Source: a virus
Taxonomy: Duplodnaviria > Caudoviricetes
Direction: 5' to 3' (one strand)
Virus record (IMG/VR): IMGVR_UViG_3300022917_000008
Location: 64,001 to 128,000 of that record
Length of the DNA: 64,000 bases
Part shown: in pieces, positions 12,097 to 21,494 of the stretch
Position numbering within the stretch: position 1 is the first letter of the stretch
How the letters are laid out: every line of letters starts with the position of its first letter
Position numbers and translations under genes: made by a program
Notes under the pieces: generated by a model
The model's database searches: none
What the model was told of the DNA's origin: nothing
Seen by the model: the letters and a program-made list of their open reading frames with translations, nothing else

Positions 12097-12192
12097 ATGC
12101 AACAACATGCAATAGATATGGCCAATAGAGAGATCAGGGTGAAGAAAAGCTCTGAGGGTATGCTATTTGCTAGACTAGATTACACAAGTTAA
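12097..12192 (+). CDS. attenuator leader peptide 1 (MQQHAIDMANREIRVKKSSEGMLFARLDYTS)
   Basis: Codons 5-17 match the downstream tRNA set; 12149-12160 is complementary to the terminator 5' arm. Confidence 0.8.
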   Translation: MQQHAIDMANREIRVKKSSEGMLFARLDYTS

Positions 12193-12840: not shown

Positions 12841-13230
12841 GTGACACAAAGAGAACAAACAATAGCAACCAAGTTCCTATATTTGATAGGAGTAACTAAG
12901 GGGCAGATATTTGCCAAGTGTAAGAACTGGCAGTCAGCTAGAACAACCATAAGGAGACATGCTGTGAAGATATATGAGACCTCAGGGAAGCCAAAAGCAT
13001 GTAACTCTTGTGGATATGATAAGCATTATGAAATATGTCACATAAGGGCTGTGTCTGACTTTCCAGATGAAGCCTTAGTTGAAGAGATAAATAGTATAGA
13101 CAACCTGATGGCACTATGTCCAAACTGTCATTGGGAGTTTGACAATTTAGATTGTGGGGTGGATGTAACGGTAACACAAGACTCTCATAAGGTCTTAATT
13201 GACAGTTCGATTCTGTCCCCCGCAACGTAA
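12841..13230 (+). CDS. HNH endonuclease with its own promoter (12806-12836)
   Basis: CNSCG...EICHI...NLMALCPNCH; C-terminus reads through tRNA-Met. Confidence 0.85.
   Translation: MTQREQTIATKFLYLIGVTKGQIFAKCKNWQSARTTIRRHAVKIYETSGKPKACNSCGYDKHYEICHIRAVSDFPDEALVEEINSIDNLMALCPNCHWEFDNLDCGVDVTVTQDSHKVLIDSSILSPAT
13153..13225 (+). tRNA. tRNA-Met(CAT)
   Basis: AGACT-CTCATAA-GGTCT; GACAG-TTCGATT-CTGTC. Confidence 0.82.
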
Positions 13231-15176: not shown

Positions 15177-15246
15177 GGGCTAGATGCCAATGGCAGGTCA
15201 ACTCCCTTGCAAGGAGATTGTTTGGGTTCGACTCCCACTATGTCCA
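15177..15246 (+). tRNA. tRNA-Ala(TGC), atypical
   Basis: CTCC-CTTGCAA-GGAG; G3:U70 pair; irregular acceptor and D arms. Confidence 0.7.
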
Positions 15247-18184: not shown

Positions 18185-18912
18185 CATACATACAGAACAA
18201 GGACGGACTTATAGGAGACTTCCTGGGATCAGTACCTGCAATGCAGGAGCTAGGTAGAAGGGACAAGCTAGTGGTACAGATTCATCCAGAGGCATTGAAG
18301 TTAGTACCTCTTATATACAACCCAGATGGGATTGTATTTACTGAGATAGCAACTGGGCAAGTGTCACATACAATCTACTCAGCTACTGCATTCCAGATTG
18401 CAACAGCAAAGAATCTGTACATGTCACAAGCATTCTTTGAGCAGGTGGGATTGGAGATTCCCCTAGTTGCTCCTAAAGCTGATTTAAGGCTCATAGAGGT
18501 CCATACTCCAACTTATGACTACATCATATCACCTTTTGCTAGAAGCCTACCAAGCAGCCAGAAATTGCCTAAGAGTGAATGGAAGCAGTTGGTGGATAGC
18601 ATGCCTAACAAGAAGTTCTGTGTAATTGGTACAACAGTGCATGATGATCCTGAGTTCATAGTAGGACCTAATGTGGAGACTAGATTTGATATGGACTTCA
18701 ACTATGTAGGTAGCCTGCTAAGGAATGCAACTAAGGGACTCATCAGTGTTGTGACAGGCACTTCTCATTTAGCATTTCACCTAGGAGTGAAGAACTGGAT
18801 ACTTAATAATCAGGACTTTGCATGGGGTACTAATCCAGATGGAGTATCAATCAGGGATCATATTCCAGCTCTATTTGGAGAAAAGATTAGAGAATATTTG
18901 GAAAATAGCTAG
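18181..18912 (+). CDS. glycosyltransferase family 9-like protein (GT-B fold)
   Basis: GLIGDFLGSVPAM...ISVVTGTSHLAFHLG; start reassigned to ATG 18181 (ATGA overlap). Confidence 0.75.
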   Translation: MTYIQNKDGLIGDFLGSVPAMQELGRRDKLVVQIHPEALKLVPLIYNPDGIVFTEIATGQVSHTIYSATAFQIATAKNLYMSQAFFEQVGLEIPLVAPKADLRLIEVHTPTYDYIISPFARSLPSSQKLPKSEWKQLVDSMPNKKFCVIGTTVHDDPEFIVGPNVETRFDMDFNYVGSLLRNATKGLISVVTGTSHLAFHLGVKNWILNNQDFAWGTNPDGVSIRDHIPALFGEKIREYLENS

Positions 18913-18928
18913 GACTGCACTATATTTG
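18897..18928 (+). promoter_or_regulatory. Bacteroidetes promoter
   Basis: TTTG-N20-TATATTTG upstream of the tRNA-like RNAs and suppressor. Confidence 0.8.
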
Positions 18929-18936
18929 TATTACAT

Positions 18937-19008
18937 GCGGGGGATACTTAGAGAGCCCTGTTCTCTTATAACCCTTTAATACAGCCATAAAAGCTGTCCC
19001 CCGTTCCA
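18937..19008 (+). ncRNA. tRNA-like RNA A (acceptor stem, T-like arm, CCA)
   Basis: GCGGGGG/CCCCCGT-T-CCA; ACAGC-N7-GCTGT; no canonical anticodon arm. Confidence 0.6.
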
Positions 19009-19009
19009 T

Positions 19010-19059
19010 GGAGAGGTGCTTCTAAGCTTTAGGTTGGTGTGATCCCAACTCTCTCTGCA
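19010..19059 (+). ncRNA. mini tRNA-like RNA B
   Basis: GGAGAG/CTCTCT acceptor stacked on GTTGG-TGTGATC-CCAAC. Confidence 0.5.
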
Positions 19060-19062
19060 AAT

Positions 19063-19115
19063 GGGTAGAAATAGCATAGAGCTGTCAGTTGGGTGTAAGC
19101 CCCACCTACCCACCA
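19063..19115 (+). ncRNA. mini tRNA-like RNA C
   Basis: GGGTAG/CTACCC-ACCA; TGGG-TGTAAGC-CCCA T-like arm. Confidence 0.6.
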
Positions 19116-19116
19116 T

Positions 19117-19189
19117 GCCTTCCTAGCTCAATTGATAGAGCGTCCATCTCTAAAATGGAAAGATGTGGGTTTGAGTCCCACGGATCGCA
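19117..19189 (+). tRNA. amber suppressor tRNA (anticodon CTA)
   Basis: TCCAT-CT-CTA-AA-ATGGA; canonical D-arm; two acceptor-stem mismatches. Confidence 0.85.
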
Positions 19190-19204
19190 CTTAAACTAAA
19201 CACA

Positions 19205-19567
19205 ATGGCTTAGATTACATCAACATCCAGATTGATAACTATAGTAAGGAGAGACCTTAGTCATGGTTATCAGACAGCACAGACAGGTCATGCAATAGCA
19301 GAATGGGCTTATAACAATCCCAGGACCTTTAGAAGGTGGAGAAAAGAAAGTGGGTACTTAATATGTCTTTCAGTAAGAAACCTAGCAGAGCTAGAGGCAT
19401 TCAACAGAAAGTTATATGACAACAAGATAAAGTACACAGCATTTTATGAACCTGACATTGGAGAGTTTACAGCAATAGCAATAACTCCTTCAACTAAGGC
19501 AGACCAGTTAACTAAGCATCTACAGCTAGCCAATGTAAAGGCTGGCACTAAGGACAAACACAAATGA
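19205..19567 (+). CDS. peptidyl-tRNA hydrolase 2-like protein with an in-frame TAG at codon 3
   Basis: IVRRDLS.G.QTAQTGHA...LICLSV...FYEPDIG..TAIA Pth2 motifs; ATG GCT TAG ATT... is in frame with the ORF called from TTG 19232. Confidence 0.8.
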
Positions 19568-19635
19568 AGCAATTATCCTCATATTATCTCCTAAGTTCCC
19601 TGTTGAATAGACAGGCTGAGATAGTATTGAGTTAA
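19564..19635 (+). CDS. attenuator leader peptide 2 (MKQLSSYYLLSSLLNRQAEIVLS)
   Basis: Codons 4-14 are all Leu/Ser/Tyr; ATGA overlap with the Pth2-like stop; contains the antiterminator strand. Confidence 0.82.
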   Translation: MKQLSSYYLLSSLLNRQAEIVLS

Positions 19636-19660
19636 GTCATTCTTCGGAGACCCTTATACT

Positions 19661-19696
19661 AGCCCTCAGCCTAAAAACTGGGGGCTTTTTGTTTTT
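19661..19696 (+). terminator. intrinsic terminator (attenuator 2)
   Basis: AGCCCTCAG/CTGGGGGCT followed by TTTTGTTTTT. Confidence 0.85.
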
Positions 19697-19698
19697 AT

Positions 19699-19774
19699 GG
19701 CAGTGTGGGCAAAATGGTAAAGTCGCTTCACTTAGGATGAAGAGGTTCTGAGAGTTCGAGTCTCTCCACTGTCA
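19699..19774 (+). tRNA. tRNA-Leu(TAG), short variable arm
   Basis: CTTCA-CTTAGGA-TGAAG. Confidence 0.85.
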
Positions 19775-19777
19775 CAT

Positions 19778-19857
19778 ACCTCCATGGTGAAATTGGTAGA
19801 CGCGACAGACTTAAAATCTGTTCCTTCGGGGTGCCAGTTCAAATCTGGCTGGGGGTA
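19778..19857 (+). tRNA. tRNA-Leu(TAA)
   Basis: ACAGA-CTTAAAA-TCTGT; Leu-type D-arm. Confidence 0.92.
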
Positions 19858-19859
19858 CT

Positions 19860-20258
19860 ATGGATAATAAAACCTACTATAGCTCCATAGCGGAGCTAAA
19901 AGTAATGGCTGATCTAACAGCTAAGCACTATCATATATTCAATCAAGTATCTGGTAAGGCACCATTTGACTTGGTTGCATACAGGGATGGAGAGCTAAGG
20001 AGAGTCAGTGTCAAGAGTTGCAACAAAGACCCTAGGAAGGACGGGGGATTTGTGATAGAAGTTGGCAGGGTAAGAGCCAATAAAACAGAGAATAAGATAT
20101 ACAAGTTTGATCAGTCTGAATGTGATCTGCTGGCCATCTACATAGTCAAAGAAGATAGAATAGTCTATGTGGAGTCAACAGTAGCGCATGATAAAAGGCA
20201 GATCATCATACAAGGAAGGTCCCAGTTGACAGAGGTACATGATCTTGAAAATCACTAG
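19860..20258 (+). CDS. PD-(D/E)XK endonuclease (group I intron-associated type)
   Basis: AELKV...PFDLV...RVSVKS...CDLLAIY. Confidence 0.8.
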   Translation: MDNKTYYSSIAELKVMADLTAKHYHIFNQVSGKAPFDLVAYRDGELRRVSVKSCNKDPRKDGGFVIEVGRVRANKTENKIYKFDQSECDLLAIYIVKEDRIVYVESTVAHDKRQIIIQGRSQLTEVHDLENH

Positions 20259-20299
20259 GTCCCTAAAAAGACGTGGGGGTTGAACTCCCCCACCTTCCT
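20214..20299 (+). tRNA. tRNA-Ser(TGA), divergent
   Basis: GGAAGGT/ACCTTCC acceptor; TGAT-CTTGAAA-ATCA; long variable arm. Confidence 0.75.
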
Positions 20300-20307
20300 C
20301 AAACTAA

Positions 20308-20392
20308 GGAGAGTTGGCTGAGAGGCTTAAAGCACCACATTGCTAACGTGGGGGCTGTAATAGGTCCACTAGTTCGAATCTAGTACTCTCCT
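20308..20392 (+). tRNA. tRNA-Ser(GCT)
   Basis: GGAGAGT/ACTCTCC; loop TTGCTAA; long variable arm. Confidence 0.9.
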
Positions 20393-20398
20393 CTTAAT

Positions 20399-20482
20399 GC
20401 CTACCATGGTAGATTGGATACTACCTGTGGACTGTAAATCCACTGCCCTTGGGCTTATTCAGTTCGATTCTGAAGGGAGGCA
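20399..20482 (+). tRNA. tRNA-Tyr(GTA)
   Basis: GTGGA-CTGTAAA-TCCAC; long variable arm. Confidence 0.82.
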
Positions 20483-20504
20483 CATTTTGTTGTATATTTG
20501 TATA

Positions 20505-20776: not shown

Positions 20777-20848
20777 ATGAAACAGACTTGGCAACATACC
20801 TTTACGACACAAACTCCACTAAAAGGAGAAGGGTATCTGTTGTCATAA
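20777..20848 (+). CDS. attenuator leader peptide 3 (MKQTWQHTFTTQTPLKGEGYLLS)
   Basis: Codons 3-14 are all Gln/Thr/Trp/His/Phe/Pro; contains the antiterminator strand. Confidence 0.85.
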   Translation: MKQTWQHTFTTQTPLKGEGYLLS

Positions 20849-20988: not shown

Positions 20989-21061
20989 GGTGCACAAGCT
21001 AATCTGGTGAAAGCACTAGACTGAAAATCTAGGGAGCTTGGATCAAAACCAAGGTGTACCG
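20989..21061 (+). tRNA. tRNA-Phe(GAA)
   Basis: CTAGA-CTGAAAA-TCTAG. Confidence 0.85.
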
Positions 21062-21062
21062 C

Positions 21063-21494
21063 ATGAAACAATCAAATAGAAAGGATGCTAGAAGGGTCAT
21101 AGACTGTGAAAACTGTGGTAACCCAACAAAGAATGATAGATTCTGTAGTCTATCTTGCTCAGCAGAACATGTATCAAAGGAGCAGTATAGAAAGTTCTTG
21201 AGCAGCCCTGAGGACTTCCAGGGTGAGGAGTACTCTCCTAAGTCCTTTAAGAAGTTTATACTGAAGGAACAGGATTGCAAGTGTAGCATCTGTAGTATAG
21301 ACAATATATGGAATGGTAAGGAACTGGTGTTTGTACTAGATCACATAGATGGAAATCCAGGCAACAATACTAGGGACAACCTTAGGCTAGTATGTCCCAA
21401 TTGTGATAGCCAGTTGGACACATTTAAAAGTGGAAATAAGGGAAGTGGTAGGTACTACAGAACACAAAGAAGATTAGAGGGCAAATCCTCATAA
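21063..21494 (+). CDS. HNH endonuclease
   Basis: CSIC...LDHIDGNPGNNTRDNLRLVCPNCDSQ; N-terminal Zn finger. Confidence 0.9.
   Translation: MKQSNRKDARRVIDCENCGNPTKNDRFCSLSCSAEHVSKEQYRKFLSSPEDFQGEEYSPKSFKKFILKEQDCKCSICSIDNIWNGKELVFVLDHIDGNPGNNTRDNLRLVCPNCDSQLDTFKSGNKGSGRYYRTQRRLEGKSS

What the first reader, a model, noticed from the sequence alone, without database searches (positions are those of the whole stretch)
19564..19696. Attenuator 2: Leu/Ser/Tyr sensor translationally coupled to the amber-gated Pth2 gene
Codons 4-14 are TTA TCC TCA TAT TAT CTC CTA AGT TCC CTG TTG, using five of the six Leu codons and both Ser boxes. The downstream cluster is exactly the Leu/Ser/Tyr tRNAs. AGGCTGAG (19613-20) pairs with CTCAGCCT (19665-72) and TAGTAT (19622-27) with ATACTA (19656-61), which would sequester the terminator arm. 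No separate promoter is visible, and the ATG overlaps the Pth2-like stop (ATGA). Inference: leader translation may depend on amber read-through upstream, forming a two-input circuit.
Basis: partly seen in the sequence, partly recalled or inferred. Interest (0 to 1): 0.85.

Follow-up and report, generated by a model that had tools for sequence, protein, structure and literature searches.

The report
Leader-peptide attenuator gating phage tRNA genes
An uncultured crAss-like phage has a 23-codon test gene, written almost only in leucine, serine and tyrosine codons and wired to a switchable transcription stop, directly in front of its Leu/Ser/Tyr tRNA genes, so it probably makes these tRNAs only when ribosomes read those codons slowly; I found no published account of this control for tRNA genes.

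Summary
The 135-nt element (19564-19698) is conserved in nine distinct related phage contigs.

- **Invariant features:** the ATG, the six codons TCA TAT TAT CTC TTA AGT and a terminator 2-12 nt before tRNA-Leu. One contig, L009, changes CTC and keeps a Ser codon.
- **Codon set:** wherever leader codons 5-13 differ they stay Leu, Ser or Tyr (TCC/CTA, CTC/TCT, TCC/TAC).
- **RNA switch:** the region-2 bases covary with region 1 and with the terminator's 5' arm (CUC/GAG/CUC becomes UCU/AGG/CCU). This supports both the 1:2 and the 2:3 helices.
- **Statistics:** the 11-codon L/S/Y run is the longest in all six frames of the 155-kb genome.
- **Sister elements:** the leaders at 12097 and 20777 match their own tRNA clusters.

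Best reading: a ribosome-mediated attenuator gating tRNA genes, confidence 0.7. No experiment exists.

The amber codon at the start of Pth2 is conserved in 10 of 10 relatives. The leader ATG overlaps an upstream stop in 8 of 10. No promoter box precedes the leader. Strict dependence on amber read-through cannot be tested here.

This scan has noted the same class in other phage genomes. I found no paper on it.

The parts
18921..18928 (+). TATATTTG box (Bacteroidota-type -7 promoter element). It is the likely promoter of the unit: suppressor tRNA, Pth2, leader, tRNA cluster.
   Evidence: Present just after the upstream ORF and before the suppressor tRNA in 9 of 9 loci (TACATTTG in L009). The same box lies 3-5 nt before the ATG of leaders 1 and 3.
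19117..19190 (+). tRNA with anticodon CUA (amber suppressor).
   Evidence: ARAGORN. Rfam tRNA model, 55.2 bits. Conserved at this position in all relatives.
19205..19567 (+). Pth2-family peptidyl-tRNA hydrolase gene starting ATG GCT TAG (amber codon at 19211-13).
   Evidence: Pfam PF01981, E = 7.6e-10, covering profile positions 3-114. The ATG-x(1-2)-TAG-ATY start is conserved in 10 of 10 relatives.
19564..19635 (+). Leader ORF of 23 codons, MKQLSSYYLLSSLLNRQAEIVLS, including the stop. Its ATG overlaps the Pth2 TGA.
   Evidence: The ORF is open in all 9 full variants and 1 partial variant. The ATG is invariant inside a variable stretch.
19573..19605 (+). Sensor run: 11 consecutive Leu/Ser/Tyr codons. 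The conserved core is TCA TAT TAT CTC CTA AGT at 19579-19596 (TTA in place of CTA in the relatives).
   Evidence: Longest L/S/Y run in the genome. Reached by 4 of 400,000 composition-matched shuffles. Variant codons stay within L/S/Y.
19578..19590 (+). Region 1: the 5' strand of helix P1. It lies inside the sensor codons.
   Evidence: MFE fold. 99.1% of cells paired. Two outer-helix pairs carry compensatory changes in L009.
19599..19615 (+). Inner hairpin at the tip of P1. It may act as an RNA polymerase pause hairpin (inferred).
   Evidence: Three of 6 pairs carry compensatory changes and all cells are paired. L002 and L007 have a different, shorter hairpin at the same place.
19613..19631 (+). 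Region 2. It pairs with region 1 (P1) or with region 3 (antiterminator).
   Evidence: Its core GCUGAG changes to GCUGGG or GCUAGG together with both partners.
19643..19659 (+). Invariant TTCGGAGACCCTT followed by ATAC. It lies in the antiterminator loop and its role is unexplained.
   Evidence: Invariant columns in alignment A1. Not conserved as codons, because the reading frame differs in L002 and L007.
19656..19672 (+). Region 3: the 3' strand of the antiterminator. It covers 6 of the 9 bases of the terminator's 5' arm.
19661..19696 (+). Intrinsic terminator: 9-bp stem, 8-nt loop, tail TTTTGTTTTT. It ends 2 nt before tRNA-Leu.
   Evidence: Folds alone at -15.5 kcal/mol. A hairpin plus U-run is present in all relatives, with five different arm sequences.
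19699..20483 (+). Gated tRNA cluster: Leu(UAG) 19699-19775, Leu(UAA) 19778-19858, a PD-(D/E)XK endonuclease ORF 19860-20258, a diverged Ser(UGA) homolog about 20213-20300, Ser(GCU) 20308-20393 and Tyr(GUA) 20399-20483.
   Evidence: Relatives carry Leu, Leu, Ser(UGA), Ser(GCU) and Tyr.

Best explanation
This is a ribosome-mediated (leader-peptide) transcription attenuator that decides whether transcription from the promoter at 18921 continues into the Leu/Leu/Ser/Ser/Tyr tRNA genes.

Shown:
- a conserved short ORF whose codons 5-13 are always Leu, Ser or Tyr;
- a helix P1 in which these codons (region 1) pair with region 2;
- an alternative helix between region 2 and the 5' arm of a strong intrinsic terminator;
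- no room for a promoter between the terminator and the first tRNA.

Inferred mechanism:
- When Leu, Ser and Tyr codons are decoded quickly, the ribosome runs to the stop codon or leaves. Region 2 is then covered or re-pairs with region 1, the terminator forms, and the tRNA genes stay untranscribed.
- When decoding of these codons is slow, the ribosome stalls on region 1. Slow decoding could come from too few cognate tRNAs, for example after tRNA cleavage by a host defence or after host shut-off, or from too little charging.
- Region 2 then pairs with region 3, the terminator cannot form, and RNA polymerase reads into the tRNA genes.
- The products decode the very codons that are tested, so the loop is a negative feedback that supplies tRNA on demand.

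This copy has no promoter of its own. It lies inside an operon behind an amber-gated Pth2 gene, and its ATG overlaps the upstream stop codon. Its ribosomes therefore probably arrive by termination-reinitiation (inferred).
For: 1. Conservation. Nine full variants and one partial variant come from relatives whose Pth2 is 67-77% identical. All keep the ATG, the core codons, P1, region 3 and a terminator just before tRNA-Leu.

2. Codon logic. Variable leader codons stay in the set despite multi-base changes: codon 5 is TCC, CTA or TCG; codon 12 is TCC, CTA or TAC; codon 13 is CTG, TTG, CTA, TCA or TCG; in L009 CTC becomes TCT. The six core codons (TCA TAT TAT CTC TTA AGT in the relatives, CTA for TTA in the window) map onto the five tRNAs behind them: Ser-UGA, Tyr-GUA, Leu-UAG, Leu-UAA and Ser-GCU.

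3. Statistics. The run is the longest in six frames of the genome and arises in about 1e-5 of composition-matched shuffles.

4. Structure. All variants fold as P1 plus terminator. With region 1 masked and the 3' arm not yet made, the MFE is the 2:3 helix in 8 of 9; the L012 run was uninformative because the script misplaced its terminator arms. The 2:3 duplex has z = -2.2 to -5.2 against shuffles in the eight variants. In L009, 10 of 500 shuffles reached the observed energy. Energies are balanced at -18.9, -19.9 and -15.5 kcal/mol.

5. Covariation. P1 is 99.1% paired with 5 compensatory pairs; 0 of 500 shuffles reach this, and slid controls give 32-52% paired. The core triplets change together across three regions: CUC/GAG/CUC in most variants, CUC/GGG/CCU in L007, UCU/AGG/CCU in L009.

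6. Sister elements in the same genome. Leader 12097 (IDMANREIRVKK) precedes the Lys, Lys, Val, Arg, Asn, Met, Glu, Asp, Ile tRNAs. Leader 20777 (TWQHTFTTQTP) precedes Pro, Phe, Thr, Gln, His, Trp. The leader-by-cluster match matrix is diagonal. Leader 3 is conserved in 5 relatives.

7. No Rfam family matches 19564-19696 at E <= 1, T-box included.
Against: - There is no experimental or transcriptome evidence. Neither termination at 19696 nor translation of the ORF has been shown.
- The host is unknown. The TerL relatives point to Bacteroidota, where the close coupling of transcription and translation that attenuation needs has not been established, to my knowledge.
- The nine variants are related, so counts across them are not independent events.
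- That the ORF stays open is weak evidence by itself, because much of it is invariant at the RNA level.
- The invariant TTCGGAGACCCTT in the antiterminator loop is not explained by the model and hints at a further partner such as a protein, an RNase or a pause signal.
- In L010 and L009 the 2:3 helix is already the MFE of the free nascent RNA, so the default state is not clear-cut.
- Attenuator-like leaders have misled before. For S. coelicolor ilvB and leuA, mutating the regulatory codons did not behave as classical attenuation predicts (PMC1262725).
Confidence: 0.7

Rival explanations
1. Two-input version. The attenuator works as above, but the leader is translated only by ribosomes that have finished the amber-gated Pth2 gene. 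Read-through into the tRNA cluster would then need both an active suppressor tRNA(CUA) and slow Leu/Ser/Tyr decoding. This is a refinement of the best explanation, not an alternative to it.
For: - The amber codon 2-3 codons after the Pth2 ATG is conserved in 10 of 10 relatives, always as TAG-A. The in-frame TTG is not conserved as a start.
- The suppressor tRNA lies directly upstream in all relatives.
- The leader ATG overlaps the upstream stop as ATGA in 5 loci and TAATG in 3.
- There is no TAnnTTTG box and no Shine-Dalgarno sequence before this leader, whereas leaders 1 and 3 have their own TATATTTG box.
- Where another ORF is inserted, it overlaps Pth2 or lies within 8 nt of it, so a coupling chain could persist.
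Against: - In L010 and L011 the leader ATG lies 2 and 9 nt after the upstream stop, and the upstream gene is not Pth2.
- The A-rich, unstructured start region could recruit ribosomes directly, as is usual in Bacteroidota (my own knowledge).
- An untranslated leader and a fast-translated leader both give termination, so the extra input would change little except early timing.
- Nothing here measures coupling.
Confidence: 0.25
2. A conserved structured RNA with another job. It could be a stabilising or processing element, or a small RNA at the 3' end of the Pth2 message, ending in a constitutive and somewhat leaky terminator. The mini-ORF would then be incidental or irrelevant.
For: - P1, the inner hairpin and the terminator are conserved with covariation.
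- An invariant 13-nt motif lies outside the ORF and is unexplained by attenuation.
- The C-terminal half of the peptide is frame-shifted in L002 and L007, so it is not conserved as protein.
- Phage T4 carries small stable RNAs inside its tRNA cluster (my own knowledge).
Against: This reading does not explain four things.
- Codons that change stay Leu, Ser or Tyr.
- The ATG is an invariant island.
- The same region-2 bases covary with the terminator arm as well as with region 1.
- Two unrelated-looking leaders in the same genome match their own tRNA clusters.

In addition, a constitutive strong terminator 2 nt before a promoterless tRNA cluster would simply silence it.
Confidence: 0.12
3. A translation-dependent sensor whose output is not termination. 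A stalled ribosome would alter RNA processing or stability (RNase access to the tRNA precursor). Alternatively, uncharged tRNAs would bind the codon-bearing strand directly, in the manner of a T-box.
For: The codon match and the structure are equally compatible with any read-out that depends on ribosome position. The invariant loop motif could be a nuclease or protein site.
Against: - A canonical hairpin plus U-run is kept in every relative even though its sequence changes.
- Complementarity to its 5' arm is maintained by compensatory change, which points to the terminator as the regulated object.
- There is no T-box match at E <= 1, no UGGN bulge in the antiterminator, and five different tRNAs would have to be read.
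Confidence: 0.08
4. Chance: an ordinary terminator after Pth2, with a fortuitous small ORF next to it.
For: U/C-rich hairpin strands tend to encode Leu, Ser, Phe and Tyr. Small ORFs and alternative pairings are common in any 130 nt.
Against: (statistics). (conservation and covariation in nine variants). (two sister elements with different composition, each matched to its own cluster).
Confidence: 0.02

Closest known systems
Multivalent leader-peptide attenuators of enterobacterial amino-acid operons (trpL, hisL, leuL, pheL, thrL for Thr+Ile, ilvL for Ile+Leu+Val)
   Same: It has a short ORF with a run of regulatory codons. It has four RNA segments forming 1:2, 2:3 and 3:4 helices, with the regulatory codons in or next to segment 1. 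An intrinsic terminator is the regulated object. One leader samples several amino acids, as in thr and ilv.
   Different: The regulated genes are tRNA genes, not biosynthetic enzymes, so the products decode the sensor codons themselves. It sits in a phage, probably of Bacteroidota. This copy lies inside an operon with its start overlapping the upstream stop, not at a 5' end with a Shine-Dalgarno sequence. There is no sequence similarity and no Rfam leader family matches.
Attenuators of aminoacyl-tRNA synthetase genes (E. coli pheM-pheST; predicted leuS and trpS attenuators in Streptomyces, PMC1262725)
   Same: Leader-peptide attenuation is applied to a component of the translation apparatus that serves the sensed amino acid.
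   Different: Those regulate a protein (the synthetase) for one amino acid. Here the output is a block of five tRNAs for three amino acids. E. coli tRNA-Phe gene pheV, checked here, has only a promoter and no leader.
T-box riboswitches
   Same: Terminator/antiterminator switches that respond to tRNA status and control translation-related genes.
   Different: A T-box binds one uncharged tRNA directly through a specifier codon and a UGGN bulge, and needs no translation. Here there is no T-box match, there is a conserved ATG and ORF, and eleven codons for three amino acids are sampled.
Leader-peptide attenuators in front of phage tRNA clusters noted earlier in this scan (attenuators 1 and 3 of this genome; other large phages of Bacteroidota)
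   Same: The design is the same: a codon-matched mini-ORF plus a terminator directly before a tRNA block. I verified the codon match of leaders 1 and 3 myself.
   Different: Those are unpublished AI notes, not an established family. Leaders 1 and 3 here have their own TATATTTG box 3-5 nt before the ATG. This one has none and follows an amber-gated Pth2 gene.

Membership tests
Leader-peptide (ribosome-mediated) transcription attenuators | Short translatable ORF upstream of the regulated genes | tested here: met
   A 23-codon ORF at 19564-19635. The ATG is invariant and the frame is open in 9 full variants and 1 partial variant. Translation itself was not measured.
Leader-peptide (ribosome-mediated) transcription attenuators | Run of regulatory codons cognate to what is regulated | tested here: met
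   Eleven consecutive L/S/Y codons precede the Leu, Leu, Ser, Ser, Tyr tRNAs. It is the longest such run in the genome, arises in about 1e-5 of shuffles, and substitutions stay within the set.
Leader-peptide (ribosome-mediated) transcription attenuators | Intrinsic terminator between the leader and the regulated genes | tested here: met
   A 9-bp G+C-rich stem plus U-run at 19661-19696, 2 nt before the tRNA. It is present in all relatives with different arm sequences.
Leader-peptide (ribosome-mediated) transcription attenuators | Antiterminator helix (2:3), mutually exclusive with the terminator | tested here: met
   AGGCUGAG/CUCAGCCU plus UAGUAU/AUACUA, -19.9 kcal/mol. A gapless core of 6 bp or more in 9 of 9 variants, with compensatory changes. 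z = -2.2 to -5.2 in eight variants.
Leader-peptide (ribosome-mediated) transcription attenuators | Helix 1:2 that overlaps the regulatory codons and competes with 2:3 | tested here: met
   P1 pairs 19578-90 with 19618-31. It is 99.1% paired with 5 compensatory pairs. It is the MFE state in all variants.
Leader-peptide (ribosome-mediated) transcription attenuators | Leader stop codon placed so that a ribosome that does not stall prevents 2:3 | tested here: inconclusive
   The stop lies 0-3 nt after region 2 in most variants and at its 5' edge in L003. It lies 9 nt further downstream in L010 and L011. The footprint argument is an estimate.
Leader-peptide (ribosome-mediated) transcription attenuators | Read-through rises when the cognate charged tRNA is scarce | not testable with these tools
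   This needs a reporter, Term-seq or an in vitro coupled system.
Leader-peptide (ribosome-mediated) transcription attenuators | Regulated genes are amino-acid biosynthesis or synthetase genes (all described members) | tested here: not met
   The genes behind the terminator are tRNAs. This is why I file it as a new variant and not as a member of a described family.
T-box riboswitch (Rfam RF00230) | Match to the covariance model, including the specifier loop and the T-box sequence | tested here: not met
   No Rfam hit of any family in 19564-19696 at E <= 1.
tRNA or tRNA-like gene | Cloverleaf recognised by ARAGORN or Rfam RF00005 | tested here: not met
   nothing is called between 19190 and 19699.

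The most novel reading that the evidence does not exclude
The phage runs a demand-driven tRNA supply. Each tRNA block is switched on by its own codon-matched leader when ribosomes slow down on those codons, for example after host anticodon nucleases or host shut-off deplete tRNAs. This particular block is in addition an AND gate. Its leader is fed only by ribosomes that have read through a conserved amber codon in the upstream peptidyl-tRNA hydrolase gene. The Leu/Ser/Tyr tRNAs would therefore be made only once the phage's own suppressor tRNA works and decoding is slow.
Probability: 0.25. Interest if true: 0.9.

Novelty: new variant of a known kind. Interest (0 to 1): 0.8.

Why it matters
Why phages carry tRNA genes, and how they use them, has been debated for decades. 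Recent work shows that phage tRNAs can replace host tRNAs destroyed by defence nucleases (PMC10264068, PMC11555353).

A leader-peptide attenuator in front of tRNA genes would be a new use of a textbook mechanism.
- The sensor measures decoding speed at exactly the codons that the regulated tRNAs read.
- This gives a self-correcting supply of tRNA and a built-in detector of tRNA depletion.
- It would also show that ribosome-coupled attenuation operates in phages of Bacteroidota.
- It offers compact, portable codon-specific sensors for engineering.
- This copy adds an operon-internal layout linked to a suppressor tRNA and an amber-gated Pth2 gene. That layout makes the question of layered translational control directly testable with a 0.8-kb reporter.

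Tried and rejected
- **GenBank phages.** blastn of 18900-20500 hit only tRNA genes and no relative of the element.
- **IMG/VR by single-protein patterns.** Pth2 and the PD-(D/E)XK ORF found nothing.
- **IMG/VR by a 17-nt core pattern.** It gave 42 loci, all chance hits lacking the rest of the element.
- **Metagenome contigs by a two-part motif.** One chance hit in a G+C-rich contig without tRNAs.
- **Where the relatives came from.** They came only through Pth2 homologs and their contigs. P0012 (46% identical, L056) has no element within reach of its contig end. No DNA could be fetched for P0003.
- **Genome-wide TAG recoding: rejected.** Removing TAG lengthens ORFs no more than removing TGA does. 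Only 4 pairs of long in-frame ORFs are separated by TAG, against 16 by TAA.
- **Known RNA family: rejected.** No Rfam hit.
- **E. coli pheV as a known tRNA gene with a leader-peptide attenuator.** This was a memory lead and it failed. The sequence shows only a promoter.
- **MAFFT/RNAalifold on the whole element.** It misaligned the terminators, so I analysed terminators and 2:3 helices per sequence instead.
- **Amino-acid identity of the suppressor tRNA.** Comparison with the phage's other tRNAs gave no clear answer; the best match was 69% to a CAU tRNA.
- **Codon usage.** The sensor codons are not simply the phage's rarest or commonest codons.
- **Literature searches.** No description of attenuation of tRNA genes was found. 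This is absence within the held library only.
Full report
**Context.** The window is bases 64001-128000 of a 155,657-bp IMG/VR virus record that CheckV rates as complete. Its large terminase is related only to crAss-like and other phages of Bacteroidota, at under 30% identity. All 23 tRNA genes that ARAGORN calls lie in the window. Rfam adds a tRNA at 20989-21061 with anticodon GAA, and a weak one at 15178-15246. The genome is not globally TAG-recoded.

**The observation.**
- The leader ATG at 19564 overlaps the Pth2 stop (ATGA).
- The ORF reads MKQLSSYYLLSSLLNRQAEIVLS and stops at 19633-35.
- Codons 4-14 are eleven Leu/Ser/Tyr codons.
- AGGCTGAG/CTCAGCCT and TAGTAT/ATACTA are exact complements.
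- A 9-bp terminator with a U-run ends at 19696, 2 nt before tRNA-Leu(UAG).
This gives the classical 1:2 / 2:3 / 3:4 layout.
- Folding energies are -18.9 kcal/mol (1:2), -19.9 (2:3) and -15.5 (3:4).

**Chance.**
- The L/S/Y run is the longest in all six frames of the genome. The same holds for the T/W/Q/H/F/P run of the leader at 20777.
- Shuffling the 33 nt gives an all-L/S/Y reading in 4 of 400,000 trials.
- Leu, Ser and Tyr make up 19% of the phage's codons.

**Relatives.** GenBank phages and IMG/VR hold no relative. Pth2 homologs at 67-77% identity led to syntenic metagenome contigs. These give nine full variants and one partial variant of the element: the window, L002, L003, L007, L009, L010, L011, L012, L057, and partial L058.

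All variants share:
- the ATG, which stands as an invariant island in a variable stretch;
- TCATATTATCTCTTAAGT (L009 has TTCT where the others have CTCT);
- GATAGTATT;
- TTCGGAGACCCTT;
- a terminator followed within 2-12 nt by tRNA-Leu. In L057 an inserted ORF follows instead.

Behind the terminator lie Leu(UAG), Leu(UAA), Ser(UGA), Ser(GCU) and Tyr(GUA). In the window, the Ser(UGA) gene survives as a diverged homolog at 20213-20300, overlapped by the end of a PD-(D/E)XK endonuclease ORF.

**Evidence that the frame is read.** The peptide is not conserved as a protein. Codons 2-4 vary freely, and a 5-nt deletion frame-shifts the C-terminal half in L002 and L007. Yet every change inside codons 5-13 keeps Leu, Ser or Tyr, including multi-base and non-conservative changes:

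| Position | Variants seen |
|---|---|
| Codon 5 | TCC, CTA, TCG |
| Codon 12 | TCC, CTA, TAC |
| Codon 13 | CTG, TTG, CTA, TCA, TCG |
| Core Leu codon (L009) | CTC becomes TCT |

 The six core codons correspond one-to-one to the five tRNAs behind the terminator.

**Evidence for the switch.**
- All variants fold as P1 plus terminator.
- I masked region 1, as a ribosome stalled at the second Tyr codon would, and ended the transcript before the terminator's 3' arm. The MFE is then the region 2:3 helix in 8 of 9 variants. The L012 run was uninformative because my script misplaced its terminator arms.
- With a ribosome at the stop codon, only the terminator remains.
- The 2:3 duplex beats shuffled partners in the eight variants (z = -2.2 to -5.2). 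In L009, 10 of 500 shuffles reached the observed energy.
- P1 is 99.1% paired with five compensatory pairs. No shuffle out of 500 reaches this, and slid controls give 32-52% paired (without L009).
- The most telling result is a three-way covariation of the core:

| Variants | Region 1 | Region 2 | Region 3 (terminator 5' arm) |
|---|---|---|---|
| Most | CUC | GCUGAG | CUCAGC |
| L007 | CUC | GCUGGG | CCUAGC |
| L009 | UCU | GCUAGG | CCUAGC |

The same region-2 bases thus follow both partners, while the terminator's 3' arm changes to match as well.

**Sister elements.**
- Leader 12097 (…IDMANREIRVKK…) plus a terminator precedes the Lys, Lys, Val, Arg, Asn, Met, Glu, Asp, Met, Ile tRNAs.
- Leader 20777 (MKQTWQHTFTTQTP…) plus a terminator precedes the Pro, Phe, Thr, Gln, His, Trp tRNAs.
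- The leader-by-cluster matrix is diagonal: 15/30, 13/22 and 12/22 matches on the diagonal against 2-6 off it.
- Leader 3 is conserved in five relatives.
- The three leaders differ in base composition, so composition cannot explain the matches.

**What is special about this copy.**
- The octamer TATATTTG fits the Bacteroidota -7 box TAnnTTTG (my own knowledge). It lies 3-5 nt before the ATG of leaders 1 and 3, and after the upstream ORF ahead of the suppressor tRNA, in 9 of 9 loci.
- No such box lies between the suppressor tRNA and this leader in 6 of 8 loci.
- The unit is therefore: promoter 18921, about 190 nt of conserved structured RNA, tRNA(CUA), Pth2, leader, terminator, tRNAs.
- Pth2 (PF01981) starts ATG-x(1-2)-TAG-ATY in 10 of 10 relatives. 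The in-frame TTG of the window is CTG or TTA in most relatives. The amber gate is therefore conserved.
- The leader ATG overlaps the upstream stop as ATGA in 5 loci and TAATG in 3, and lies 2 or 9 nt after it in 2 loci. In four loci the upstream gene is an inserted ORF, not Pth2.
- Coupling is plausible, but dependence on amber read-through is untested.

**Open points.**
- The invariant TTCGGAGACCCTT in the antiterminator loop is unexplained. It is not conserved as codons, and its 5' pairing partner varies or is absent (L003).
- The host and its degree of transcription-translation coupling are unknown.
- Attenuator look-alikes have failed mutational tests before (PMC1262725).

**Novelty.** Searches of the held literature found no attenuation of tRNA genes. 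E. coli pheV has no leader. Earlier notes of this scan describe the same design for attenuators 1 and 3 of this genome and for several other large phages. Those are unpublished AI notes, and I re-tested only the parts cited above. I rate this a new variant of a known kind: the mechanism is the textbook one, while the regulated object (tRNA genes), the checklist-like multi-amino-acid leader and the phage setting are new.

Noticed in passing
window 19205-19213 and L002, L003, L007, L009, L010, L011, L012, L057, L058: The Pth2 gene begins ATG, then 1-2 variable codons, then TAG-ATY in all 10 relatives, directly after a tRNA(CUA). The base after TAG is always A. The window's in-frame TTG is CTG or TTA in most relatives, so read-through of the amber codon seems obligatory for Pth2.
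   Followed up: partly
window 18935-19116 and the same place in 8 relatives: Conserved structured RNA lies between the TATATTTG box and the suppressor tRNA. All loci share a module GGTGCTTCTAAGCTTTAGG...GGTGTGATCCC flanked by G/C-rich complementary arms. Some loci carry one or two further tRNA-like hairpin modules. It may be related to the handle-tagged tRNA mimics noted elsewhere in this genome.
   Followed up: no
window 20213-20300: A diverged tRNA-Ser(UGA) homolog. The acceptor stem, the CTTGAAAA anticodon loop and the T arm are kept and the D-arm region is altered. ARAGORN missed it and it scores only 24.6 bits on Rfam tRNA-Sec. Its 5' half overlaps the end of the PD-(D/E)XK endonuclease ORF 19860-20258, which relatives lack at this place.
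   Followed up: partly
window 20989-21061 and 15178-15246: Rfam finds a tRNA (51.5 bits, anticodon GAA = Phe, matching Pro-Phe-Thr in relatives) that ARAGORN did not call. It also finds a borderline tRNA-like hit (29.8 bits) at 15178-15246.
   Followed up: no
window 19643-19659: TTCGGAGACCCTT (then ATAC) is invariant in nine variants, although it lies after the leader stop and in the loop of the antiterminator. It is not conserved as codons and has no constant pairing partner. It could be a site for a protein, an RNase or a pause.
   Followed up: partly
window 11005, 12086, 12878, 18921, 20493, 20766, 21874: Seven of the eleven plus-strand TATATTTG octamers of the genome lie in the 11-kb tRNA region, each just before an ORF, a leader or the suppressor-tRNA unit. 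About 5.4 per strand are expected genome-wide from composition. They are probably early or middle promoters.
   Followed up: partly
window 19860-20258, 21054-21494, 12900-13150; L003 3338-3706, L010 1456-1953, L011 1077-1562: Homing-endonuclease-like ORFs (PD-(D/E)XK, HNH) and unknown ORFs are inserted at different places between the tRNAs in different relatives. One such insertion lies between Pth2 and the leader.
   Followed up: no
window 19117-19190: The suppressor tRNA's acceptor stem as called (GCCTTCC / GGATCGC) has C-C and U-U mismatches. Its closest relative among the phage's tRNAs is a CAU tRNA at 69% identity, so its amino-acid identity is open.
   Followed up: partly
window 19564-19572, 20777-20785, 12097-12105: All three leaders begin M-K/Q-Q (ATGAAGCAA, ATGAAACAG, ATGCAACAA). 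In MFE folds of the terminated RNA this A-rich start pairs with the terminator's U-run.
   Followed up: no
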